Below, piece after piece: positions 2,617 to 54,130 of a stretch of 64,000 nucleotides of DNA. The notes beneath the pieces are model-generated. The model saw only the letters and a program-made list of their open reading frames with translations, made no database searches and was not told where the DNA came from. Source of the DNA: an uncultured Planctomycetia bacterium (GTDB taxonomy: Bacteria; Omnitrophota; Gorgyraeia; Tantalellales; Tantalellaceae); assembly GCA_964572255.1 (NCBI GenBank), contig CAZNEE010000001.1, positions 459,587 through 523,586 on the forward strand, read 5' to 3'. The translations under genes and the position numbers were made by a program. The first letter of the stretch is position 1. Every line of letters begins with the position of its first letter.

Positions 2617-4533
2617 ATGTTCGAATCTATCAAGTTATACACCGGCGAGACAGTTGAGCTGGATGAGATCATCCGGAACCTTGAGCGGTACGACTATAAC
2701 AGGTGCCGGAAAGTCTCGATCGAAGGGGATTACAGCCTTCTCGGAGAGACCCTCATAATTTTTCCCGTCACATTTGAATACCCCGTAAGGATAGATCTTT
2801 CGGACGGCAAGGTAAATTCCATAAAAAGTGTCGATATAGTATCATTCCGCACGATCACGGACCATAAAGGCGTTATCGTTCTTCCCGCGAATATCCTGCG
2901 CCGCACAAAAGTAAAAAAACAGCAGATGGAGCTCGGGGAAAGCCCCATAGATTCTTTTGTGGATATCGAGCCGGGCGATTTTGTTGTCCATATAGATTAC
3001 GGTATAGGAAAATATCTGGGCATGCAGCGCATGCGGCGTGACGGGAAAGTGCAGGATTATTTTGTTATTGAATATGCCGGAGGGGATAAACTGTATGTTG
3101 AGCACGCTGACCTGCATAAACTTCAAAGGTATGTGTCATTTCACAGAAAACCGCATAAGCTCAACAGTCTTAAGGGTAAAAGGTGGCAGAGCGCCAAGAA
3201 CAGGGCGACGAAAGGCGCTGAAAAAATAGCCCGGGATTTTCTGCGCCTGCAGGCGATCAGGGAAAATACAAAAGCCTATGCGTTCAGCAAAGATACCGAC
3301 TGGCAAAAAGAGGTAGAAGATGCCTTCCCGTATAAAGAAACACCGGATCAGATTAAAGCGACCGGGGAAACCAAGCTTGACATGGAAAAGATGCGTCCGA
3401 TGGATAGGCTTCTGTGCGGTGATGTGGGATACGGAAAGACGGAAGTCGCCATGCGCGCGGCATTCAAAGCGGTCATGGATAATAAACAGGTGGCTTTCCT
3501 TGTTCCCACAACCATTTTGGCCGAACAGCACATGGAAACTTTCCAGAAGAGGATGAAGGATTATCCCGTTAACATACAGATGCTGAACCGCTTTAAGACC
3601 CCCTCGGAACAGGAAAAAATAGTCACGGGGGTCAGGGAGGGGAAGATCGATATCGTTATAGGCACGCACCGGCTCCTTTCAGATGATATAAAATTCAAAG
3701 ATCTGGGGCTTCTTATCATCGATGAAGAGCAGAGATTCGGCGTTAAACAAAAAGATAAAATAAAGAGGATGCGTGTTAATGTTGATATCCTTACGCTTAC
3801 TGCCACGCCCATACCCAGAACCCTTTATCTTGCTCTCATGGGGGGCAAAGACATTTCGATGATAGAGACGCCGCCTTTGGAAAGGATACCTGTTCATGCC
3901 AAGGTCATAGAATTTGACAAGAAGGTCATCAAAGAAGCCATCAGGAAGGAATTAGAGAGGAAGGGACAGGTTTATTTTGTGCACAACAGGGTCGAATCGA
4001 TAGACAGAATAGCCTCTGAAGTAAAAGCTCTTGTCCCGGAAGCCAGACTTATGGTGGGGCACGGCCAGATGAGCTCAAAAATGCTTGAAGAAACCATGGT
4101 AAAATTCATTAAAGGAGAAGTGGATATTCTGGTATGCACGACTATCATAGAATTCGGGATAGATATCCCTAATGCGAATACCATGATACTGAATCAGGCG
4201 GACAAGTTCGGTTTAGCGGATCTTTATCAGCTTAAAGGCAGGATAGGAAGATTTGACAGGCAGGCTTTCGCGTATCTCGTTGTCAGGGATTTTGGTTCAT
4301 TGACGGGCGAAGTAAGAAAACGATTGGAGGTTATACAGAAATACCATGAGCTGGGTTCCGGGTTTAAAATAGCCATGCGGGATCTTGAGATGAGAGGAGC
4401 CGGCAATATTCTGGGAATAGAACAGAGCGGCTTCATTGACTCGATCGGTTTTGATCTGTATTGCCGCCTGCTCCGGGAAGAAATCTCAAAGCTCAAGGGG
4501 GACGCCCCATTCGGGGACACCCTACATAGCTAA
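2617..4533 (+). CDS. mfd: Transcription-repair coupling factor Mfd, short form of 638 aa. It has an RNAP-interaction-like region followed by the superfamily 2 (SF2) translocase module. The UvrB-homology N-terminus and the D7 C-terminal domain are absent.
   Basis: The stretch FPYKETPDQIKATGETKLDMEKMRPMDRLLCGDVGYGKTEVAMRAAFKAV...LVPTTILAEQH matches the Mfd translocase module almost residue for residue. The helicase motif QLKGRIGRFDRQAFAYL and the TRG-like region (RDLEMRGAGNILGIEQSGFIDSIGFDLYCRLL) are present. The ORF ends inside a repeat element at 4497-4522. Confidence 0.8.
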   Translation: MFESIKLYTGETVELDEIIRNLERYDYNRCRKVSIEGDYSLLGETLIIFPVTFEYPVRIDLSDGKVNSIKSVDIVSFRTITDHKGVIVLPANILRRTKVKKQQMELGESPIDSFVDIEPGDFVVHIDYGIGKYLGMQRMRRDGKVQDYFVIEYAGGDKLYVEHADLHKLQRYVSFHRKPHKLNSLKGKRWQSAKNRATKGAEKIARDFLRLQAIRENTKAYAFSKDTDWQKEVEDAFPYKETPDQIKATGETKLDMEKMRPMDRLLCGDVGYGKTEVAMRAAFKAVMDNKQVAFLVPTTILAEQHMETFQKRMKDYPVNIQMLNRFKTPSEQEKIVTGVREGKIDIVIGTHRLLSDDIKFKDLGLLIIDEEQRFGVKQKDKIKRMRVNVDILTLTATPIPRTLYLALMGGKDISMIETPPLERIPVHAKVIEFDKKVIKEAIRKELERKGQVYFVHNRVESIDRIASEVKALVPEARLMVGHGQMSSKMLEETMVKFIKGEVDILVCTTIIEFGIDIPNANTMILNQADKFGLADLYQLKGRIGRFDRQAFAYLVVRDFGSLTGEVRKRLEVIQKYHELGSGFKIAMRDLEMRGAGNILGIEQSGFIDSIGFDLYCRLLREEISKLKGDAPFGDTLHS

Positions 4534-4604
4534 CAACATCATAACTTTTACAAAAATTTTATATTTATTTAATCTTATAGGGTGTCCCCGAATGGGGCGT
4601 CCCC
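4497..4604. repeat. MITE-like element, copy 1. It has perfect 25-bp terminal inverted repeats (GGGGACGCCCCATTCGGGGACACCC / GGGTGTCCCCGAATGGGGCGTCCCC) flanking about 57 bp of AT-rich interior.
   Basis: The inverted repeat can be read directly on both arms. The left arm encodes the last residues of Mfd (DAPFGDTLHS-stop). A second copy sits at 42931-43026. Confidence 0.6.
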
Positions 4605-4679
4605 AAATAAATCTTGCAGGCGTGGAAGGGTTCTGATAACATATACCCCATATTATAATTATTTAGGCGGTTTAATATA

Positions 4680-6511: not shown

Positions 6512-7499
6512 GCCGCAGATCTTCATAACCATGGGCGATCCGGCCGGTATAGGGCCGGAAGTTATCATGAAAACAATGGCAAGTCCGGCGATAAGACGGC
6601 TTGCCGTTTTTGTTATAATTGCCGATAGCGGCGTGATAAAGAAAAATCCGGCCGGCCTTTCTTTGGAAGAGGTGCTTTTTCATCCGAATGATCAAGAAGT
6701 GACTTTGGATGAGGAGCGCATCAATGTTCTTGATCCCGGGCCGGAACTTGGAGAGATCACACCGGGGCAACCTACCGATGAAGGCGCCCGAAAAGCTCTT
6801 GATTGCATCGATCTGGCCATTAGAGCTGCCGGCGATCCGGAGAATAATACACCAAAAGCAATAGTAACGGCTCCCGTGTGCAAAGAGGCAATAGCGAATA
6901 TTCATCCCGGTTTTATCGGGCACACGGAATATCTGCAGAACGCTTTCTCATCGGAACTTGTGACCATGGTGATGGTAGGGAAGACGTTCTCGGTCGTTCC
7001 CGTAACAAGACATATACCGCTTAAAGAAGTTCCTTCAGTACTGTCACTGGATCTTATATACGAAACCTTAAAGCAGGTCGTGGAGGGGCGTCATATCATA
7101 TCAGGCAAAGAAGATCCCCATATCAGCGTCACGGCATTAAACCCTCATTCCGGAGAAGGCGGCAGGATCGGACGGGAAGAGATCGATCTCATACGCCCGG
7201 CTGTCGATAAAGCAAGATCTTTATACGGGGAAATGGATGGCCCCGTTTCAGCCGATGTTGTTTTTTACCGGGCGATGCACGGAAAAACCGACATAGTAGT
7301 GGGCATGTATCATGATCAGTGCCTTGCGCCGTTCAAGATGGTGGAGTTCGATAAAGGGATAAACATGACGCTCGGGCTGGGCTGTGTCCGCACTTCTCCA
7401 GACCATGGTACAGCTTTTGATATAGCGGGCAAGGGCATCGCAAACCATGCTTCGATGGAAGAGGCGGTTAAATTGGCGATCCGAGCGGTTGTCGTATAA
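6489..7499 (+). CDS. pdxA: 4-hydroxythreonine-4-phosphate dehydrogenase.
   Basis: The motifs ITMGDPAGIGPEV, GHTEYL and ALNPHSGEGG are present. The start may instead be the ATG at 6531 (MGDPAG...). Confidence 0.85.
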   Translation: MRISPTNKPQIFITMGDPAGIGPEVIMKTMASPAIRRLAVFVIIADSGVIKKNPAGLSLEEVLFHPNDQEVTLDEERINVLDPGPELGEITPGQPTDEGARKALDCIDLAIRAAGDPENNTPKAIVTAPVCKEAIANIHPGFIGHTEYLQNAFSSELVTMVMVGKTFSVVPVTRHIPLKEVPSVLSLDLIYETLKQVVEGRHIISGKEDPHISVTALNPHSGEGGRIGREEIDLIRPAVDKARSLYGEMDGPVSADVVFYRAMHGKTDIVVGMYHDQCLAPFKMVEFDKGINMTLGLGCVRTSPDHGTAFDIAGKGIANHASMEEAVKLAIRAVVV

Positions 7500-7507
7500 A
7501 TAGATTT

Positions 7508-7653
7508 GATGTGTGAGCTGTTTCTGACAGGACATCAAATTGATGAGCGAGCATGGTGTCTTGCGTTTAAGAGCCGGACGAGCGAAGCAATTTTTGAGTC
7601 AAATTTTCTCGCTGGGAAAATTTGACGTTCCTGGAAGAAATAGCTCACACATC
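7508..7653. repeat. Structured palindromic intergenic element. An 18-bp inverted repeat, GATGTGTGAGCTGTTTCT / AGAAATAGCTCACACATC (one mismatch), encloses nested palindromes.
   Basis: Inverted repeat arms lie at 7508-7525 and 7636-7653. The inner palindrome CATCAAATTGATG sits at 7533-7545. GTCAAATTTT/AAAATTTGAC lie at 7598-7607 and 7617-7626. Confidence 0.45.
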
Positions 7654-7676
7654 GAATGTTTTCATATTAAATAACG

Positions 7677-24408: not shown

Positions 24409-25103
24409 TGAGAATTTATTCCGAAACAGTTCCGGTGCAGTACGAAGAAGGCAGAACTCACTTTTGCGGAATGGATATCCTGGTCGATGAAAGGGTATTT
24501 ATCCCGCGGCCGGAAACGGAACTGGTGGTATCAACAGTTATCGATCTTTGTCAGAAAAAAAGTTTAAAGGATCCGTTCATACTTGATGTGTGTACGGGAA
24601 GCGGGGCGATATCGATAGCGCTGGCTAAGCATGTTCCCTCATCCCGGGTGATAGCCGTGGATATCTCGGAAGATGCCCTGCAAGTTGCCCGGGCAAATGC
24701 AGTCAGAGCGGGAGTTGAGAAAAGCATAACTTTTTTCCGTTCCGATATGTTCGGCGCTTTATGTCCGGATTATAAAGGGATGTTTGATGCAGTGGTTTCA
24801 AATCCGCCTTATGTATCAGCCGGTGATTATCAAAAAGCGGATGCCTGGGTCAAGGCGGAACCCGAAATAGCTCTATTGGCAGGCGATGAGGGCATGGATC
24901 ACTTGAATATTTTGGCTGAGGAAAGCGGAGACTTTCTTAAAGCGGGAGGATTTCTGGCGGTCGAGATCGGGTACGACCAGTCAGAAAAGGTCAAAAGAGC
25001 TTTTTTATCCGCGGGCTATGAAAATATAAGCCCGCACAAGGATTTCAACGGTTACGAACGTGTTATAACCGGAGAAAAGCCTCAGCGGAAAGAGATATAT
25101 TAA
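24408..25103 (+). CDS. prmC: Release factor glutamine methyltransferase.
   Basis: The SAM-binding motif ILDVCTGSGAISIALA and the NPPY motif (VVSNPPYVS) are present. The gene follows prfA. Confidence 0.8.
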   Translation: MRIYSETVPVQYEEGRTHFCGMDILVDERVFIPRPETELVVSTVIDLCQKKSLKDPFILDVCTGSGAISIALAKHVPSSRVIAVDISEDALQVARANAVRAGVEKSITFFRSDMFGALCPDYKGMFDAVVSNPPYVSAGDYQKADAWVKAEPEIALLAGDEGMDHLNILAEESGDFLKAGGFLAVEIGYDQSEKVKRAFLSAGYENISPHKDFNGYERVITGEKPQRKEIY

Positions 25104-25118
25104 ATTAGGATTTGTGGA

Positions 25119-25191
25119 TTTGCTTGTTATGTTTCGTACAGGGAGGATCCACACCGGGCGGAGGGGCCCTGGTAGAAATATAACAAGCAAA
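25119..25191. repeat. Intergenic hairpin element carrying the conserved 29-nt core (copy B; core at 25141-25169, GGGAGGATCCACACCGGGCGGAGGGGCCC).
   Basis: The 12-bp flanking stem TTTGCTTGTTAT / ATAACAAGCAAA encloses the core. The core differs from copy A by a single T to C change. Confidence 0.5.
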
Positions 25192-25208
25192 TTGAGAGAT
25201 GCGAATTT

Positions 25209-26474
25209 ATGGATAAATTATTAGTAGAGGGCGGCAGGAGATTAAAGGGAAGCATAAAGGTGAGCGGCGCTAAGAACGCTTGTCTTCCGATAATGGCGGC
25301 GTCACTTTTGACCGGCGAATCCTGCACGATAAGGAACATCCCGGACCTTAAAGATGTCTCTACAATGATAGAGATATTGGCGGCTTTAGGGCGCAAGGTC
25401 AAACGTGAAGGTGACGTGCTTCGCATTGAAGAAGGCGAGGCAACCAGCCAGACAGCTCCTTATGAACTGGTAAGCACAATGCGCGCTTCCATCGTTGTTT
25501 TGGGGCCGCTCCTTTCGAGGTACGGAAAAGCAAGGGTTTCTTTCCCGGGCGGATGCGTGATCGGCCCAAGGCCGATCGATCTGCATTTAAAGGGATTGAG
25601 AGCGCTCGGTGCCGATATCCGGATCGATGAAGGATACATTGTTGCCGGCGCGAAGAAGCTCAAGGGGACCAGAATTTATCTGGGCGGGCATTTCGGATCA
25701 AGCGTTCTTGCGACAGCAAACACGCTCATGGGGGCGGTTCTGGCAGAAGAAGAGACTGTCATAGAAAATGCCGCATGCGAACCCGAGGTAGTGGACCTGG
25801 CGAATTTTCTGATCGCAATGGGAGCGTACATAAAAGGCACCGGAACGCCGACGATCAGGGTTAAAGGAGTGGATAAATTAAGAGGTGTTGATTATTCCAT
25901 CGTTCCGGACAGGATTGAAGCCGGAACTTATATGATAGCCGGTGTTTTGACTGACGGAAGGCTCTTTCTTGAAAATGCAAGATTGGAGCATAACCTTGCT
26001 TTGGTGGACAAACTTCAGGAATGCGGCGCGGCGGTTGAAGAGAAGGAGAACGGGCTGGATGTCTACAGGAACACCAGAACCGTCCGGCCTACGGATATAA
26101 CGACTCTTACATATCCGGGGTTCCCGACCGATCTGCAGGCGCAGATAATGAGTCTATTGACATTAAGTGACGGCATCAGCGTAATTACGGAAAAAGTATA
26201 TCCTGAAAGATTTATACATATAAGCGAGCTCAACAGGATGGGAGCGAACATCATCCTTGAAGGTTCAACCGCTATTATCAAGGGCGTCAAGAGATTAAGC
26301 GGCGCGCCGGTAATGGCATCGGACCTAAGGGCCTCCGCGGCGCTTATACTTGCCGGCCTTGTTGCCGAAGGCGCTACCGAGATCTCCAGGATATATCACT
26401 TAGACAGAGGTTACGAGCATATAGAAGACAAACTATCGGCTGTAGGAGCAAAGATAGAAAGAATAAAAGAGTAA
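25209..26474 (+). CDS. murA: UDP-N-acetylglucosamine 1-carboxyvinyltransferase.
   Basis: The N-terminus LLVEGGRRLKGSIKVSGAKNA is typical of MurA. The product is 421 aa. Confidence 0.9.
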   Translation: MDKLLVEGGRRLKGSIKVSGAKNACLPIMAASLLTGESCTIRNIPDLKDVSTMIEILAALGRKVKREGDVLRIEEGEATSQTAPYELVSTMRASIVVLGPLLSRYGKARVSFPGGCVIGPRPIDLHLKGLRALGADIRIDEGYIVAGAKKLKGTRIYLGGHFGSSVLATANTLMGAVLAEEETVIENAACEPEVVDLANFLIAMGAYIKGTGTPTIRVKGVDKLRGVDYSIVPDRIEAGTYMIAGVLTDGRLFLENARLEHNLALVDKLQECGAAVEEKENGLDVYRNTRTVRPTDITTLTYPGFPTDLQAQIMSLLTLSDGISVITEKVYPERFIHISELNRMGANIILEGSTAIIKGVKRLSGAPVMASDLRASAALILAGLVAEGATEISRIYHLDRGYEHIEDKLSAVGAKIERIKE

Positions 26475-40591: not shown

Positions 40592-40620
40592 TTCAAGGAT
40601 ATATTGCCAGAATAAAAAAT

Positions 40621-40649
40621 AGCCCGCCGTGAAAGGCGGGCTATTTTTT
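40621..40649. terminator. Bidirectional intrinsic terminator between convergent hflC (+) and lpxD (-).
   Basis: AGCCCGCC-GTGAAA-GGCGGGCT is a perfect 8-bp GC-rich stem. It is flanked by an A-run on the 5' side and a T-run on the 3' side. Confidence 0.6.
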
Positions 40650-41661
40650 ATTCATCAGAAACTTCTCTTAATAATTTTCTCAGCTTTTTGGAGTGTTTCT
40701 CAAGCCAGGATAGAAAAGCCAGTTCACTTTTAGATTTTTTTGCGTCTTTGGCCGGATAGCCGAAGATGGTCTCATTGTCCCTGATAAGGCCTATGACTCC
40801 GGACTGCGCGCCTATTTTAACATTACTGCCTATTTTTACGTGATCCGCCACGCCGACTTGTCCTCCTACCAGGGTTCCGTCGCCTACGCTTGAACTTCCC
40901 GCGATGCCGGTTTGGGCGGCGACCATGACGTTCCTGCCGATCTTATCGTTATGGGCGATCTGGACAAGATTATCCAGTTTCGATCCTTTTCCTATGACCG
41001 TGGTTGTGAATGTACCTCTGTCTATACAGGTATTCGCGCCGATCTCTACTTCATCTTCTATGACTACATTGCCCAGCTGAGGCACTTTATAGACTTTGCC
41101 TTCACGGCTGACATACCCAAAACCGTCAGCGCCTATGACAGAACCGGAGTGGATGCCGACTTTATTTCCGATCACGGTAAGATCGTAGATGGTAACGTTC
41201 GGATAAATTTGCGTTGAGGCGCCGATCTTCACGTTTTTTCCTATTACGCAATTTGCCCCGATAGAGGAGTTGTCGCCTACAGTCGTATTTTTTCCGACGA
41301 TAGCATAAGGCCCTATTGAAACGTTTTTACCGAGCTTTACATTCCCGGCTAGAACCGCTGTTTTGTGTATTGTGCCTTTTGCAGGGGGCTTATTATTCTC
41401 TATGATGTTATAAAGCATCGTTACGGCTAATTTCATGTCCTTAACCAGGATGGCTGTTTTAGCAAGATCCGGCGCTTCACCGGCAGTGAGCACGCATGAA
41501 GCCGCGCTTTTACCGGCTTCTTCAAAGTTTTTTTCGTCCGCAATAAATGTTATTTCGCCTTCTTTCGCGAAAGAAGGGGCGGACATGCCGTGTATTTGCG
41601 CGTTACCGTCTCCGACGACTTTCCCGTCCAGCAATTTTGCTATCTCATTTACAGTTATCAT
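40648..41661 (-). CDS. lpxD: UDP-3-O-acylglucosamine N-acyltransferase.
   Basis: The N-terminus [15 protein letters not shown]...IHGMSAP is followed by a left-handed beta-helix with hexapeptide repeats. The product is 337 aa. Confidence 0.85.
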
Positions 41662-41815: not shown

Positions 41816-41998
41816 ATGGCTGCAAAAAAGAAAAATCTGAAAAAAGTTTCCAAAGCGCAAGTCAAGACATTCAAGATCAAGAACCGAAAAGGCTATGCGG
41901 CAGTTTGCATGAATAACGTAACGGAGGGTTCTTCGGTGTCCCTGGCGCTTGACAGGATGAATAAAGCGCTCAAGAGATCGGGATACACTCTCGGCTGA
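41816..41998 (+). CDS. Small lysine-rich basic protein of 60 aa (hypothetical).
   Basis: A strong ribosome-binding site AAAGGGAGG precedes the start. The translation is MAAKKKNLKKVSKAQVKTFKIKNRKGYAAVCMNNV.... Confidence 0.4.
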   Translation: MAAKKKNLKKVSKAQVKTFKIKNRKGYAAVCMNNVTEGSSVSLALDRMNKALKRSGYTLG

Positions 41999-42004
41999 TA
42001 AGAA

Positions 42005-42970
42005 GTGAAAATATTAGTTACAGGCGCGACAGGTTTTATCGGTCAAAGATTTGTCGAAAGTATCCTGCCGGAGGGAAATGAGATCTTCTCGCTTGTGAGA
42101 AAAACAAGCAAGGTTGATTTTTTAAAAAAGGCGGGAATTTCTCTCATTACTGCGGATATAGCAGACCGGGAGGAAGTGGAGAAAGTCTTTTCCGAGGTTC
42201 GGCCCGATGTTACGGTGCATTGTTCCGCCAGCGTCACTTCAGGTGATGAAGATGAGCTTTATAAAGCTAATGTGGTCGGAACCGAAAATATTTGCTCTGC
42301 GTGCTTGAAATATTGCACGGATCGCCTTGTATATCTAAGTTCGGTTTCGGTGGTAAGCGGAAATACCGAAACTCCCCTAAGGGATGATATGCCGTATAAA
42401 GCCACAAGCGCTTACGGCCGGTCAAAAATAGAAGCTGAAAAAAAAGTTTTAAGATACAGGGACAAAGGGCTGCGCGCGGTCGTACTCAGGCCGTGCATGG
42501 TTTACGGGGAAGAAGAACCGCATGCACTTGATAAAATACTCCGGAGGGTATCAAAAAGACTGGTTCCGGTGATCTCCATGCCGGGAGTGAAGGACAAGCT
42601 GCATCTGGCATATATTGATAATGTTGTAGATGCGATGCGGCTTGCCATGGGAAAGCCTCAAGCGCTTTCGGGTACGTTTATCATCGCCGACAGGGAGATA
42701 ATATCGATAAGAAAATTTATTGAGATCCTCTCCGATGAGCTTGGCGCGGGAAAACCTTTCGTGATACCGGTTTTTTTAGTTAAGACCGCTCTTATAGTCC
42801 CGTTTATAAGGAAAAAATTCAACAGGATATTTAAAGACAGGATATATGATATAAGCCGGGCAGTTAGCGAGCTTGGCTATGACCCAAAGATCTCGACCGA
42901 AGAGGCTTTAAGAAAAACCGCTCGGTATTGGGGGACGCCCCATTTGGGGACACCCCACAAGGGAGAATAA
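42005..42970 (+). CDS. NAD-dependent epimerase/dehydratase (extended SDR).
   Basis: The Rossmann motif ILVTGATGFIG and a YxxxK catalytic motif are present. The C-terminal residues (WGTPHLGTPHKGE) are encoded by the MITE-like element. Confidence 0.75.
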   Translation: MKILVTGATGFIGQRFVESILPEGNEIFSLVRKTSKVDFLKKAGISLITADIADREEVEKVFSEVRPDVTVHCSASVTSGDEDELYKANVVGTENICSACLKYCTDRLVYLSSVSVVSGNTETPLRDDMPYKATSAYGRSKIEAEKKVLRYRDKGLRAVVLRPCMVYGEEEPHALDKILRRVSKRLVPVISMPGVKDKLHLAYIDNVVDAMRLAMGKPQALSGTFIIADREIISIRKFIEILSDELGAGKPFVIPVFLVKTALIVPFIRKKFNRIFKDRIYDISRAVSELGYDPKISTEEALRKTARYWGTPHLGTPHKGE

Positions 42971-43026
42971 GCATAAAAAATTATACTTGGTTAGCTATAT
43001 GGGGTGTCCCCAAATGGGGCGTCCCC
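42931..43026. repeat. MITE-like element, copy 2. It has perfect 26-bp terminal inverted repeats (GGGGACGCCCCATTTGGGGACACCCC / GGGGTGTCCCCAAATGGGGCGTCCCC).
   Basis: The terminal repeats can be read directly. They match copy 1 except for one position (C versus T at the centre). The interior is the approximate reverse complement of copy 1's interior. Confidence 0.6.
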
Positions 43027-43037
43027 CTTCAAATGAT

Positions 43038-43949
43038 ATGTCGAGAATAACTATAACTATACTTGGAACGACAGCGGGCGTTCCGACAAGAGAAAGAGCT
43101 CACACGGCTATTCATCTTAATTATGATGATGGTGAGCAGTTCAATTATCTTTTTGACTGCGGTGAAGGCGCTCAAAGACAGATGATGATAGCCGGTCTCA
43201 ATATCATGAAGTTGGAAGGCGTATTCATAACGCACTGGCATGGCGATCATTGCCTGGGCTTACCGGGGATGGTAGACACAATGGGATTTGAGTCAAGAGA
43301 ACGACCTTTGGATATTTTTGCCCCGGAAGCAAAAAGGATAAAAAAAGCTTTAAGCGTTACTTATTCAATGGGGAATTTTAAGATCATCCCGCACGATGTC
43401 CCTCTAAGAGGAGAGAAGGAATTCAAGGTATTGGACGAGGAAAGGTTCAGTATAATCTCTTTACCCATGAAGCATAGCGTTCCCACGGTCGCTTATGCGC
43501 TGGTTGAAAAAAATAAGACGCAGATCGATCTTAAAAAAGCTACAGCGTTGGGGCTTCCCGAAAAAGGTGAGATATATAACGAGATAAAGACCAGAGGCAT
43601 GGCATCTTTTGAGGGCAGAAAAATCGCTTTAGAGGATATTTCATCGACCAGGAAAGGCAAAAGATTTGTTTTCTCCGGAGATACCGAAGTTTCTGAAAAT
43701 CTCAAAAAGTTAGTCAGGGATGCGGATCTATTGGTGCAGGATTGCACGTATTTTGAGGATCTTAAGGACAAGCCTCATCAACATGCGACGTTGCCGGAGG
43801 TGCTGGATATGGTGGAGAAGGAAAATGTCAAAAAAACTGTTCTTACGCATATAAGCCGCAAATACCAGGATCCCGAAGAGCTTGAAAGGCTAGTCAGTAA
43901 TTATCCCAATGTTGGAGTCGCAAAAGACTTTAAGAGGATAGAGATATGA
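43038..43949 (+). CDS. rnz: Ribonuclease Z / metallo-beta-lactamase-fold tRNA 3' processing enzyme. The start was moved to the ATG at 43038, outside the repeat element.
   Basis: The stretch ITILGTTAGVPTRERAHTAIHLN...ITHWHGDHCLGLPG contains the HxHxDH metallo-beta-lactamase motif and resembles short-form RNase Z. Confidence 0.7.
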   Translation: MSRITITILGTTAGVPTRERAHTAIHLNYDDGEQFNYLFDCGEGAQRQMMIAGLNIMKLEGVFITHWHGDHCLGLPGMVDTMGFESRERPLDIFAPEAKRIKKALSVTYSMGNFKIIPHDVPLRGEKEFKVLDEERFSIISLPMKHSVPTVAYALVEKNKTQIDLKKATALGLPEKGEIYNEIKTRGMASFEGRKIALEDISSTRKGKRFVFSGDTEVSENLKKLVRDADLLVQDCTYFEDLKDKPHQHATLPEVLDMVEKENVKKTVLTHISRKYQDPEELERLVSNYPNVGVAKDFKRIEI

Positions 43950-44488
43950 AGGTCCTATTGCACATATGCTGCGGCGTGTGCGCAACGGCAGTCGCTGAAA
44001 AACTCTTGATCGAGGGGTACGAGCTAACAGGTTTTTTTTATAATCCCAACATACATCCCGAAGATGAATACAAGCGGCGGCTCGATTCGGCAAAAAAAGT
44101 TGCGGAACATCTGAAATTTGAACTTATAGAAGGCATTTACGACAGAGAAAACTGGTTCCCGCAAGTTAAAGGCTTGGAGTATGAACCTGAAGGCGGCAAG
44201 CGCTGCATCGCTTGTTTCCGCATGCGCCTCTCTAAAACGTATGAAGTAATGAGGAAGAAGAATTTCGACAGGTTCACGACCACTTTAAGCGTAAGTCCCT
44301 TGAAAGACGCCACTTACATAAACAAGATAGGAATGGAGATAGGCGGTGAGAAGTTCATCGTAGATGATTTTAAGAAAAAAGGCGGTTTCCAAAGAGCTGT
44401 GGAACTTTCCAAGGAGTGGGGATTATACAGGCAGGATTACTGCGGATGTATTTACAGCAAGGAAGAATCCCTTAAGAAAAGAAAATGA
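43946..44488 (+). CDS. queH: Epoxyqueuosine reductase QueH (DUF208).
   Basis: The N-terminus MKVLLHICCGVCA, additional conserved Cys residues (CIACFRMR, YCGCIYS) and a ~180-aa length support the call. Confidence 0.65.
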   Translation: MKVLLHICCGVCATAVAEKLLIEGYELTGFFYNPNIHPEDEYKRRLDSAKKVAEHLKFELIEGIYDRENWFPQVKGLEYEPEGGKRCIACFRMRLSKTYEVMRKKNFDRFTTTLSVSPLKDATYINKIGMEIGGEKFIVDDFKKKGGFQRAVELSKEWGLYRQDYCGCIYSKEESLKKRK

Positions 44489-53681: not shown

Positions 53682-53828
53682 GGACGTTTCCAAAAATAAT
53701 CCCGGAAGCGTCCCTAAGGTCAAAGCCAGACCTGTCCCCATCACGGGGGAGAATTATTTTTGTCTTTTTTTTATACCCTCACCACTTACTTCAAATTCTT
53801 TTTTTAATAAAGATAGTTTTATATTGCT

Positions 53829-54039
53829 CACGGGAAAGATGAGCTTTTGGAGTGAATACGATTTTTAGGCATTTATTTGGTTTTTTAAGGTAAATTACCT
53901 ATTTTTGCAACTGTTTGAGCCGGATGAGCTAATAATATGGAAATGATCAGCGAAGCAGGCGAGTTTTGCAAAACCTTAAAAAGGCAAATAAATGGCGTTA
54001 AGAAAATCGTCTGAACGGGAAAAGCTCATCTTTCCCGTG
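53829..54039. repeat. Roughly 210-bp long palindromic element (MITE-like or structured RNA). A perfect 20-bp terminal inverted repeat, CACGGGAAAGATGAGCTTTT / AAAAGCTCATCTTTCCCGTG, encloses nested complementary segments.
   Basis: The terminal repeats lie at 53829-53848 and 54020-54039. The inner pairs are CATTTATTTG/CAAATAAATG, TTAAGG/CCTTAA and TTTTGCAA/TTGCAAAA. Confidence 0.5.
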
Positions 54040-54130
54040 TACTATAAAAAACTTGACTTATCTCACCTTATAATGTAATCTTTTACTAAGGATGGATAGT
54101 TAACAAAAATGTTAATTATGTATATTTAGC

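What the first reader, a model, noticed from the sequence alone, without database searches (positions are those of the whole stretch)
42931..43026. Second copy of the same MITE-like element, fusing the epimerase C-terminus and overlapping the rnz start
The terminal inverted repeats are 26 bp and perfect, GGGGACGCCCCATTTGGGGACACCCC, with one centre position differing from copy 1. The interior is the approximate reverse complement of copy 1's interior. The epimerase ORF ends ...YWGTPHLGTPHKGE inside the element. The ORF track's rnz start (MVSYMGCPQMGRPPSNDM...) is also element-encoded, and the likely true start is ATG at 43038. Two independent insertions at gene 3' ends that create in-frame C-terminal tails (both contain GTPH) suggest either target preference for stop-codon regions or tolerance of this tail.
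Basis: seen in the sequence. Interest (0 to 1): 0.55.

Follow-up and report, generated by a model that had tools for sequence, protein, structure and literature searches.

The report
REP doublet served by tyrosine transposase
The 96-bp perfect hairpin between the epimerase and RNase Z genes is a REPIN-type element: a pair of inverted REP repeats whose matching single-copy tyrosine transposase (RAYT) sits on the same Omnitrophota contig. This is an ordinary kind of bacterial selfish DNA, landed here one to two codons before a stop codon.

Summary
The sequence is as described. Window 42931-43026 is a perfect 26-bp inverted repeat (27 bp counting one flanking G/C pair) around a 44-nt AT-rich spacer. 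A second copy lies at 4498-4604. Neither is expected by chance, and five independent assemblies carry the identical sequence.

It is not a classical DDE-type MITE. None of 7 doublets has a target-site duplication. The only gene found flanked by the 26-mer is a Y1/HUH tyrosine transposase of the RAYT type. One such gene, P0042, lies on the same 526,890-bp Candidatus Omnitrophota contig as the window. Its 3' flank carries the same 26-mer plus the same ACATAGCTAA extension seen in the window doublets. Its predicted fold best matches the E. coli RAYT bound to a REP hairpin (4ER8).

The element is therefore a REPIN, or in Di Nocera's terms a "TIR-repeat dimer" of a TIRtron. It lacks the canonical GTAG tag.

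Homologue C-termini show that both window copies inserted 1-3 codons upstream of the native stop codons, leaving AAATAA and TTCAAATGA as relics. The insertions gave Mfd a GDAPFGDTLHS tail and the epimerase a GTPHLGTPHKGE tail. The rnz start at ATG 43038 is supported.

Verdict: new member of a known kind, of modest interest.

The parts
42931..42956 (+). Left REP unit (26-mer GGGGACGCCCCATTTGGGGACACCCC), made of two GGGGACRCCCC half-sites 15 nt apart. The epimerase ORF reads it as GTPHLGTP.
42957..43000 (.). AT-rich 44-nt spacer. It supplies the epimerase's present stop codon (TAA 42968-42970). Its right end, TTAGCTATAT, is the 'A-side' extension shared with copy 1 and with the RAYT 3' REP.
43001..43026 (-). 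Right REP unit, the perfect reverse complement of the left unit. It contains the spurious in-frame ATG 43014 that some gene callers use as the rnz start.
42930..43027 (.). Maximal hairpin (REPIN): 27-bp perfect stem, -71.4 kcal/mol as RNA.
42932..42970 (+). Element-encoded C-terminal tail of the epimerase (GTPHLGTPHKGE plus stop). It replaces the short variable basic tail that follows the conserved ...RYW(K/R) in homologues.
43028..43036 (+). Relic of the native epimerase end (TTC AAA TGA). Removing the element restores ...RYWFK* with a stop 1 nt before the rnz ATG.
   Evidence: for homologue ends
43038..43949 (+). rnz (RNase Z) with its probable true start, ATG 43038, 11 nt after the hairpin foot.
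4498..4604 (.). Copy 1 of the same REPIN: arms 4498-4523 and 4579-4604 (GGGGACGCCCCATTCGGGGACACCCT) and a 55-nt spacer, in the opposite spacer orientation to copy 2. The Mfd ORF reads in and ends GDAPFGDTLHS* at 4533.
4605..4610 (+). Relic of the native Mfd end (AAA TAA). Removing copy 1 restores ...EEISKLKK*, matching Omnitrophota Mfd homologues.

Best explanation
The element is a REPIN. It is a doublet of two inverted copies of a 26-nt REP-like repeat (two GGGGACRCCCC half-sites 15 nt apart) around a poorly conserved AT-rich spacer. It is non-autonomous DNA belonging to a REP/RAYT system of Candidatus Omnitrophota.

Its partner is a tyrosine (Y1, HUH) transposase of the RAYT type, seen at a single locus. 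This protein, P0042 (196 aa), is encoded on the same 526,890-bp contig and is itself bracketed by the same repeat.

By analogy with E. coli TnpA-REP and IS200/IS605 elements, the RAYT is inferred to recognise the folded single-stranded repeat. It would then cut and rejoin it without duplicating the target, spreading doublets to new sites.

In this gene-dense genome the surviving copies sit at gene ends. This copy landed two codons before the epimerase stop and 11 nt before the rnz start. That swapped the epimerase's last residues for 12 repeat-encoded ones and put a very stable hairpin between two formerly abutting genes.

Shown:
- The repeat family exists and is dispersed in the same genome.
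- A RAYT-type gene lies on the same contig and is flanked by the repeat.
- There is no target-site duplication.
- The insertion points relative to the native stop codons.

Inferred:
- Mobilisation by the RAYT through single-stranded DNA.
- Any effect on mRNA stability or on translation of the epimerase and rnz.
For: Same-genome family:
- Three doublets from one genome (window 4498-4604, window 42931-43026, L009 361-469) align along their whole length, spacer ends included. There is also one singlet.
- L009's LptF/LptG and the window's QueH, Mfd and SurA-like proteins all share the same longest contig of 526,890 bp.

Cognate enzyme:
- In L013 the 26-mer brackets, in inverted orientation, a 211-aa ORF that hits Pfam Y1_Tnp at 50 bits (cut-off 23). 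It scores 66 bits against NCBIfam REP-associated tyrosine transposase versus 19 bits against IS200.
- Its homologue P0042 also has a longest contig of 526,890 bp and co-occurs in the same samples as the window's genes.
- The P0042 gene (L028 3001-3591) is followed 11 nt after its stop by GGGGTGTCGCCGAATGGGGCGTCCCC, with the inner extension ACATAGCTAA identical to the window doublets' A side. A degenerate copy lies 117 nt upstream of the start codon.
- All six places shown for P0042 have the same neighbouring genes, so it occupies one locus.
- HUH (H60/H62), Y120 and N124 are invariant in 46 homologues and align to the E. coli TnpA-REP HUH motif and Y115/N119 (residue numbers from PMC6006769).
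- The AF2 model has pLDDT 91. Its best PDB fold match is 4ER8 (RAYT bound to a REP hairpin), E = 6.7e-9, TM 0.74 over 163 of 165 columns, ahead of the IS200/IS608/ISDra2 TnpA structures.

Lineage pattern:
- Related Omnitrophota RAYTs are bracketed by related GGGAC-containing inverted repeats: L023 42 nt at 98%, L038 19 nt at 100%, L035 22 nt at 91%.
- So 5 of the 6 loci examined are bracketed in this way.

Other features:
- None of 7 doublets has a target-site duplication of 3 bp or more.
- Both arm differences between the two window copies are compensated in the opposite arm.
- The architecture matches the published REPIN definition (PMC3116915).
- The inner half-site GGGGACAC fits the GGGGWSAS motif reported for TIRs flanking RAYT-like 'TIRYT' genes (PMC3733652).
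Against: - The repeat lacks the 5' GT[AG]G tag of canonical RAYT-associated REPs.
- A single 26-mer is not predicted to fold better than shuffled sequence (-5.8 kcal/mol, z about -1).
- The RAYT scores 61-75 bits against the NCBIfam equivalog, below its 80-bit cut-off.
- Across genomes, arm-to-arm covariation is not significant (34-68 of 500 shuffles do as well). In a second species the central 4-5 nt of the arms do not pair.
- Copy number could be sampled in only about 100 kb of the genome (3 doublets, 1 singlet), so high abundance is not shown.
- No empty-site allele or excision product was seen, so mobility is inferred.
- One RAYT homologue (P0007, L036) has no detectable flanking repeat and sits among integrase, Fic and TIR genes.
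Confidence: 0.8

Rival explanations
1. It is a classical MITE: a deletion derivative of a DDE-transposase insertion sequence, mobilised by cut-and-paste through its terminal inverted repeats.
For: - Small size, perfect terminal inverted repeats, an AT-rich non-coding core and at least 3 copies in one genome.
Against: - None of 7 doublets has a target-site duplication of 3 bp or more.
- The repeat also occurs as lone units.
- The only genes bounded by it are Y1/HUH transposases.
- No DDE transposase was seen next to any copy in about 250 kb of fetched loci.
- The repeat is absent from plasmid, phage and viral collections.
Confidence: 0.04
2. The transposase-plus-flanks unit is an active IS200/IS605-like insertion sequence, and the doublets are its palindrome-associated deletion derivatives. 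On this reading it is not a domesticated single-copy RAYT with REPINs.
For: - The gene is bracketed by inverted repeats like an insertion sequence, 42 nt at 98% in L023.
- The doublet's A side equals the gene's 3' flank.
- The repeat lacks the GTAG tag.
- One homologue lies in a mobile-looking island.
Against: - P0042 is seen at one locus only, among housekeeping genes (dapB, nadA and panC on one side, a phosphate transporter and IMPDH on the other), across all samples.
- Its 5' repeat is degenerate at 7 mismatches, so the unit looks immobile.
- The protein is 196 aa with a C-terminal extension. It scores far better against the RAYT model than the IS200 model, and its fold is closest to 4ER8.
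- No TnpB partner is present.
Confidence: 0.1
3. The hairpins are primarily host regulatory structures kept by selection rather than mobile DNA. Possible roles are an mRNA 3'-end stabiliser, a decoupler of adjacent genes, a protein-binding site, or a ribosome-stalling signal at stop codons.
For: - The stems are extremely stable and sit exactly at gene 3' ends and operon junctions.
- The 26-mer is almost invariant between genomes whose RAYTs are only about 48% identical.
- E. coli REPs near stop codons are reported to stall ribosomes (as cited in PMC12306157).
Against: - The host genes at the sites are unrelated (Mfd, epimerase, ComF/LptG, LeuC/D, TrpB).
- Dozens of orthologous Omnitrophota Mfd and epimerase genes lack the element.
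- No U-tract terminator is present and there is no Rfam family.
- The association with a transposase explains the dispersal. This reading is compatible with secondary co-option, not an alternative origin.
Confidence: 0.06

Closest known systems
REPINs with RAYTs (Pseudomonas fluorescens SBW25, E. coli BIMEs and TnpA-REP; PMC3116915, PMC5581495, PMC3479197)
   Same: - Two inverted short repeats around a less conserved spacer, forming a long hairpin.
- Doublets predominate, with occasional singlets.
- Changes between arms are compensated.
- No target-site duplication.
- A Y1/HUH transposase seen at one locus, flanked by the same repeat.
- Location at gene ends.
   Different: - The repeat has no 5' GT[AG]G tag.
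- The repeat is built from two GGGGACRCCCC half-sites rather than one clear imperfect palindrome.
- The host is Candidatus Omnitrophota rather than Proteobacteria.
- The RAYT falls just below the NCBIfam equivalog cut-off.
- Abundance appears moderate, at roughly one per 30-45 kb sampled.
TIRtrons, TIRYTs and their dispersed TIR-repeat dimers (Di Nocera et al. 2013, PMC3733652)
   Same: - A RAYT-like gene flanked by long inverted repeats unrelated to GTAG REPs.
- The repeats share a GGGGWSAS-type motif; GGGGACAC fits it.
- The same repeats are dispersed in the genome as dimers.
   Different: - TIRtrons were described in Acidobacteria, Stenotrophomonas and others, not in Omnitrophota.
- Here the RAYT's own 5' repeat is decayed, while the dispersed doublets are perfect.
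Rickettsia palindromic elements (RPE) and intragenic REPs (e.g. in Opitutus terrae uvrA; PMC3733652)
   Same: - Palindromic repeats that end up inside ORFs and are translated as short extra peptides, often in DNA-repair genes. Here Mfd is one host.
   Different: - RPEs insert in-frame in the middle of proteins and have no known transposase.
- Here the insertions are in the last 1-3 codons, terminate the ORF within the spacer, and have a candidate transposase.
DDE-type MITEs (e.g. Neisseria Correia elements, cyanobacterial Nezha)
   Same: - About 100-bp non-coding elements with terminal inverted repeats, sitting at gene boundaries and able to alter the expression of neighbours.
   Different: - Those create target-site duplications and derive from DDE insertion sequences.
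- Neither feature is found here.

Membership tests
REPIN / REP-RAYT system | Two REP units in inverted orientation, separated by a short spacer and able to form one hairpin | tested here: met
   26-27 bp perfect arms and a 44-nt spacer, -71.4 kcal/mol, z = -9.3. The same holds for copy 1 and for L009.
REPIN / REP-RAYT system | Dispersed multi-copy family within one genome, with doublets as the conserved unit | tested here: met
   3 doublets and 1 singlet on the same 526,890-bp contig. The doublets align through the spacer ends. The genome-wide number is not obtainable here.
REPIN / REP-RAYT system | A RAYT (Y1/HUH transposase) in the same genome, flanked by the same REP | tested here: met
   P0042 shares the window's contig. 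A REP with the same ACATAGCTAA extension lies 11 nt after its stop, and a degenerate copy lies upstream. It hits Pfam Y1_Tnp, the HUH motif and Tyr are conserved, and 4ER8 is the top fold hit.
REPIN / REP-RAYT system | RAYT present as a single copy, unlike insertion-sequence transposases | tested here: inconclusive
   Every place found for P0042 is the same locus. The whole genome could not be searched.
REPIN / REP-RAYT system | Canonical 5' GT[AG]G tetranucleotide at the foot of the REP | tested here: not met
   There is no GTAG or GTGG on either strand of the 26-mer (read directly). It is therefore a non-canonical REP.
REPIN / REP-RAYT system | Each REP unit is itself an imperfect palindrome (stem-loop) | tested here: inconclusive
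   The unit can be drawn as GGGG-ACG-CCCC-ATTT-GGGG-ACA-CCCC or as two 4-bp mini-hairpins. The DNA fold is only -5.8 kcal/mol, z about -1. Between-genome variation concentrates in the central 4-5 nt.
REPIN / REP-RAYT system | RAYT protein reaches the NCBIfam equivalog NF047646 cut-off | tested here: not met
   Scores are 61-75 bits against a cut-off of 80. This is still far above the IS200 model at 16-19 bits.
REPIN / REP-RAYT system | Demonstrated mobility (excision products, or presence/absence polymorphism) | not testable with these tools
   All 5 assemblies covering the site carry the element. The only polymorphism seen is a 23-nt tandem duplication.
TIRtron / TIRYT (PMC3733652) | RAYT-like gene bracketed by long inverted repeats unrelated to GTAG REPs, with a GGGGWSAS-type motif, and the repeats also dispersed as dimers | tested here: met
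   Flanking inverted repeats are present at L013, L028, L023, L035 and L038. GGGGACAC fits GGGGWSAS (definition). Dimers occur in the window and L009.
MITE (DDE-transposon derived) | Target-site duplication flanking the element | tested here: not met
   None of 7 doublets has a direct repeat of 3 bp or more, even allowing offsets of up to 3 nt.
MITE (DDE-transposon derived) | Terminal inverted repeats shared with an autonomous DDE insertion sequence | tested here: not met
   The only genes bounded by the repeat are Y1 transposases. The repeat gave no hit in plasmid, phage or viral collections.
Rho-independent terminator | GC-rich stem followed directly by a U tract | tested here: not met
   The terminator scan of 42000-44000 did not flag the element. 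The stem is followed by CTTCAAATG.
Any Rfam RNA family | Covariance-model match at the gathering threshold | tested here: not met
   Only 4 tRNAs were found in the window.

The most novel reading that the evidence does not exclude
This Omnitrophota RAYT/REPIN family may insert with a real preference for the last few codons or stop-codon context of genes, rather than merely surviving there.

- Both window copies lie 1-3 codons upstream of the native stop, with AAAT[AG]A just downstream.
- In at least 7 of about 13 distinct sites across four genomes, an ORF terminates inside the element.

If the preference is real, the element systematically rewrites C-termini. It would also place a hairpin of about -70 kcal/mol at translation-termination sites and operon junctions, where it could have been co-opted to tune ribosome termination, tmRNA tagging or translational coupling, for example of rnz.
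Probability: 0.12. Interest if true: 0.55.

Novelty: new member of a known kind. Interest (0 to 1): 0.3.

Why it matters
- It extends REP/RAYT (REPIN) systems to Candidatus Omnitrophota, an uncultured PVC-related phylum. None of the REP/RAYT papers found or checked in the held library mentions that phylum.
- It gives a clean example of a non-GTAG repeat paired with its RAYT. The same 26-mer is kept almost unchanged in genomes whose RAYTs are only about 48% identical.
- For annotation, it explains odd C-terminal tails (GTPHLGTPH..., GDAPFGDT...) and false upstream start codons (MGRPP...) in Omnitrophota gene calls. These should be masked or corrected.
- It does not reveal a new mechanism.

Tried and rejected
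- **Rfam scan of the whole window:** only tRNAs.
- **Terminator and promoter scan around the element:** nothing at the element.
- **Scan of viral contigs for the 26-mer, and BLAST of the element against plasmids and phages:** no hits.
- **RAYT search inside the window by tblastn:** none found. The only 'hits' are translations of the repeat itself.
- **Target-site duplication search:** none.
- **Covariation of the two arms across 9 doublets from several genomes:** not significant. The central 4-5 nt are unpaired in one species. I therefore rely only on the two compensated differences within the window genome.
- **Folding of a single 26-mer:** no better than shuffles.
- **Search for a conserved insertion target in the flanks:** the flanks are AT-rich with no consistent motif, and there are too few sites.
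- **In-silico excision at L003, L014 and L004:** excision at the exact repeat ends gives read-through into the next gene. At L003 and L014 this is an in-frame fusion. The true boundaries there are uncertain, and only the two window sites gave a robust reconstruction.
- **CGTC-tagged REP superfamily (the outer end reads ...GGGGCGTCCCC):** rejected, because the defining 8-9 bp stem and 4-5 nt loop are absent (definition).
- **Protein search in the PDB by sequence:** gave only a weak hit to 4ER8 (E = 0.24). This was superseded by the fold search.
Full report
**1. The observation**

Window 42931-42956 reads GGGGACGCCCCATTTGGGGACACCCC, and 43001-43026 is its exact reverse complement. With one more G/C pair the stem is 27 bp (42930-43027), and the spacer is 44 nt.

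A search for the 26-mer allowing three mismatches finds four sites in the window: these two and 4498-4523 / 4579-4604. Shuffled sequence gives 0.00 on average. As RNA, the two elements fold at -71.4 and -62.1 kcal/mol, with z-scores of -9.3 and -10.4.

The same element, base for base in the arms, is present in five independently assembled contigs of the same organism from JGI, ENA and Logan data. G/C-run sequencing errors are therefore excluded.

The epimerase ORF (42005-42970) does end ...RYWGTPHLGTPHKGE* inside the element. The longest rnz ORF does begin inside it.

Three details in the finding need correction:
- Copy 1 differs from copy 2 at two arm positions (T15C and C26T), each mirrored in the other arm.
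- The spacer similarity to copy 1 in reverse complement is only marginal overall (81 of 2000 shuffles score as well). It rests mainly on a 10-of-11 match, AYATAGCTAAC, next to one arm.
- The Mfd ORF reads copy 1 in a different frame and ends ...KLKGDAPFGDTLHS*. The two tails therefore do not share GTPH.

**2. Where the repeat occurs**

Exact-pattern scans of genome and metagenome collections found the 26-mer in several low-GC Candidatus Omnitrophota MAGs and metagenome contigs. One of the records is labelled Planctomycetia. A few high-GC hits look like chance matches.

The repeat occurs both as lone units and as inverted pairs. Spacers range from 33 to 137 nt, and in one case the pair is 786 nt apart.

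That last pair (L013 2337-2362 and 3149-3174) brackets a 211-aa ORF. The ORF matches Pfam Y1_Tnp at 50 bits against a cut-off of 23. It scores 66 bits against the NCBIfam REP-associated tyrosine transposase model and only 19 bits against the IS200 model.

The repeat is absent from viral contigs, plasmids and phages. It matches no Rfam family.

**3. The cognate enzyme of the window's own genome**

There is no such gene in the 64-kb window. A homologue search with the L013 protein returned more than 1,300 relatives, mostly 194-196 aa proteins from Omnitrophota.

One of them, P0042, is the window genome's RAYT:
- It is found in the same samples as the window's genes.
- Its longest contig, 526,890 bp, is the same as for the window's QueH, Mfd and SurA-like proteins and for the LptF/LptG proteins of locus L009.

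In L028 the P0042 gene (3001-3591) is followed, 11 nt after its stop, by GGGGTGTCGCCGAATGGGGCGTCCCC. The inner extension is ACATAGCTAA, the same as on one side of the window doublets. A degenerate copy lies 117 nt upstream of the start codon.

Every place found for P0042 has the same housekeeping neighbours, so it occupies a single locus.

The catalytic residues are conserved:
- The HUH histidines, Y120 and N124 are invariant in 46 homologues.
- They align with the HUH motif and Y115/N119 of E. coli TnpA-REP (residue numbers from PMC6006769).

An AlphaFold model (pLDDT 91) has as its best PDB match 4ER8, the E. coli RAYT bound to a REP hairpin. The match has E = 6.7e-9 and TM 0.74 over 163 of 165 columns, ahead of the IS200, IS608 and ISDra2 transposases.

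Related RAYTs in other Omnitrophota, 47-59% identical to P0042 and to each other apart from one 73% pair, are bracketed by related GGGAC-containing inverted repeats:
- 42 nt at 98% in L023.
- 19 nt at 100% in L038.
- 22 nt at 91% in L035.
- One homologue, in L036, has none.

**4. Anatomy of the family in this genome**

In about 100 kb sampled from the window's genome there are three doublets, one singlet and the RAYT flanks.

The three doublets align over their whole length once oriented by the spacer. One side carries REP plus AYATAGCTAA (also the RAYT's 3' flank). The other carries REP plus AYAAG...ATAAG. This points to the doublet, not the single repeat, as the copied unit.

The two window copies lie in opposite spacer orientations. 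None of seven doublets has a target-site duplication of 3 bp or more.

Within the genome, both arm differences between copies are compensated. Across genomes, arm covariation is not significant, and in a second species the central 4-5 nt of the arms do not pair. A single 26-mer does not fold better than shuffles.

The repeat has no GTAG or GTGG tag. Its inner half-site GGGGACAC fits the GGGGWSAS motif that Di Nocera et al. reported for inverted repeats flanking RAYT-like "TIRYT" genes. Those repeats also occur dispersed as dimers (PMC3733652).

**5. Effect on the neighbouring genes**

*Epimerase.* More than 40 Omnitrophota epimerase homologues end at a conserved ...R(Y/H)W(K/R) followed by a short variable tail, typically 3-10 residues. 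In the window the repeat starts within the W codon. Removing 42932-43027 restores ...RYWFK*. The TGA at 43034-43036 then lies 1 nt before the rnz ATG at 43038.

*Mfd.* Omnitrophota Mfd proteins are uniformly 625-647 aa (ignoring a few shorter, probably partial entries) and end ...EEIxxLK plus a few residues, typically 0-5. Removing 4498-4604 restores ...EEISKLKK*.

These reconstructions hold when the element ends are shifted by -1 to +2 nt. Both insertions are therefore 1-3 codons upstream of the native stop, whose relics (AAATAA and TTCAAATGA) remain just downstream.

The tails arise because the 26-mer has no stop codon in any frame on either strand (read directly from the sequence). The next stop comes from the AT-rich spacer.

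*rnz.* B. subtilis and E. coli RNase Z residues 3-4 align to residue 23 of the long ORF, and the ATG at 43038 is residue 18. This supports 43038 as the start. Gene callers that start at 42987 or 43014 are reading the repeat.

**6. Location bias**

The window is about 86% coding by a crude ORF count, with a median gap of 18 nt.

Across the distinct sites in all genomes, an ORF of at least 100 codons terminates inside the element in at least 7 of about 13 sites. In four more, the stop lies 14 nt or less from the element's edge. One doublet (L009) lies in a divergent 5' region.

REPs close to or overlapping gene ends, REPs supplying stop codons, and intragenic REPs in repair genes have all been described (PMC3733652). 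REPs near stop codons are reported to stall ribosomes in E. coli (cited in PMC12306157).

With so few sites, a true target preference cannot be separated from survival of harmless insertions.

**7. Interpretation and verdict**

The best explanation (confidence about 0.8) is a REPIN-type doublet of a non-GTAG REP. In the alternative nomenclature it is a TIR-repeat dimer of a TIRtron. It is served in trans by the RAYT P0042, seen at a single locus.

*Shown:*
- The family exists in this genome.
- The RAYT shares the window's 526,890-bp longest contig and is flanked by the repeat.
- Its fold and catalytic motifs are those of a RAYT.
- There is no target-site duplication.
- The insertion points relative to the native stops.

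*Inferred from the E. coli TnpA-REP and IS200/IS605 paradigm:*
- Recognition of the folded single-stranded repeat.
- Cleavage and rejoining by the catalytic tyrosine.
- Copying to new sites.

Any role of the hairpin in mRNA stability, ribosome stalling at the epimerase and Mfd stops, or coupling of rnz translation is speculative.

*Rivals:*
- A DDE-type MITE is essentially excluded.
- An active IS200/IS605-like element with deletion derivatives remains possible, at about 0.1.
- A primarily host-regulatory origin is unlikely, though secondary co-option is not excluded.

The finding is a new member of a known kind. It is useful for annotating Omnitrophota genomes and as an example of a non-canonical REP/RAYT pair, but it is not mechanistically new. 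Interest 0.3.

Noticed in passing
L017 3547-3600 and L018 3520-3573 (equivalent to window 43012-43034): Two strain variants carry a 23-nt tandem duplication, CAAATGGGGCGTCCCCCTTCAAA. It spans the outer half of the right arm and the flank, and adds a third GGGGCGTCCCC half-site between the hairpin and the rnz ATG. They also have one spacer SNP. This is the only polymorphism seen at the site.
   Followed up: partly
window 2617-4533: The Mfd (transcription-repair coupling factor) here and in about 120 Omnitrophota homologues is compact, mostly 625-647 aa versus about 1150 aa in E. coli. Pfam finds UvrB_inter, CarD_TRCF_RID, DEAD and Helicase_C but no C-terminal TRCF domain. The short form is native and was not caused by the repeat insertion.
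   Followed up: partly
window 7495-7666, 25101-25209, 53815-54053: Three other long imperfect inverted repeats (38-, 43- and 51-nt arms, 77-82% complementary). The first two fill intergenic gaps that begin right at a stop codon; the gene context of the third was not examined. They are not the same family as the REP. The first two share a ...GCT(T)GTT..TTTC..ACAGG motif and may be another repeat family.
   Followed up: partly
window 40610-40653: A perfect 19-bp palindrome, GAATAAAAAATAGCCCGCC / GGCGGGCTATTTTTTATTC, with A/T runs on both sides. It lies between the convergent Band_7 gene and lpxD and looks like a bidirectional intrinsic terminator.
   Followed up: no
L003 2547-2631, L008 509-593, L010 4439-4532: In a second REP-bearing species the two arms are not exact inverses. 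The central 4-5 nt read ATTT on the same strand in both arms, so they cannot pair in the long hairpin. This hints that the centre of the 26-mer is a loop or spacer with strand-specific sequence.
   Followed up: partly
L013 3149-3179; L014 4687-4832; L003 2547-2631: The L013 RAYT ORF itself reads into its 3' REP (...KRAGCPQMGRPQ*). In L014 and L003 the doublet sits between leuC/leuD and between an upstream ORF and a trpB-like gene. It separates an apparent Shine-Dalgarno sequence (GAGGAGG, TAGGAG) from, or places it next to, the downstream start. Exact excision at the repeat ends would fuse the two genes in frame.
   Followed up: partly
L023 and L038 versus L040/L041: In two other Omnitrophota, the RAYT (P0005, P0003) lies between an FBP-aldolase gene and lptF/lptG, near metK and ahcY. 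In the window's genome the related metK-ahcY-pfk-lptF-lptG region has only a lone REP after lptG, and the RAYT is elsewhere. This may be a trace of an older RAYT position or of a rearrangement.
   Followed up: no
window 41816-41998: A 60-aa lysine-rich ORF just upstream of the epimerase is called as a gene in all strain contigs but has no Pfam match.
   Followed up: no
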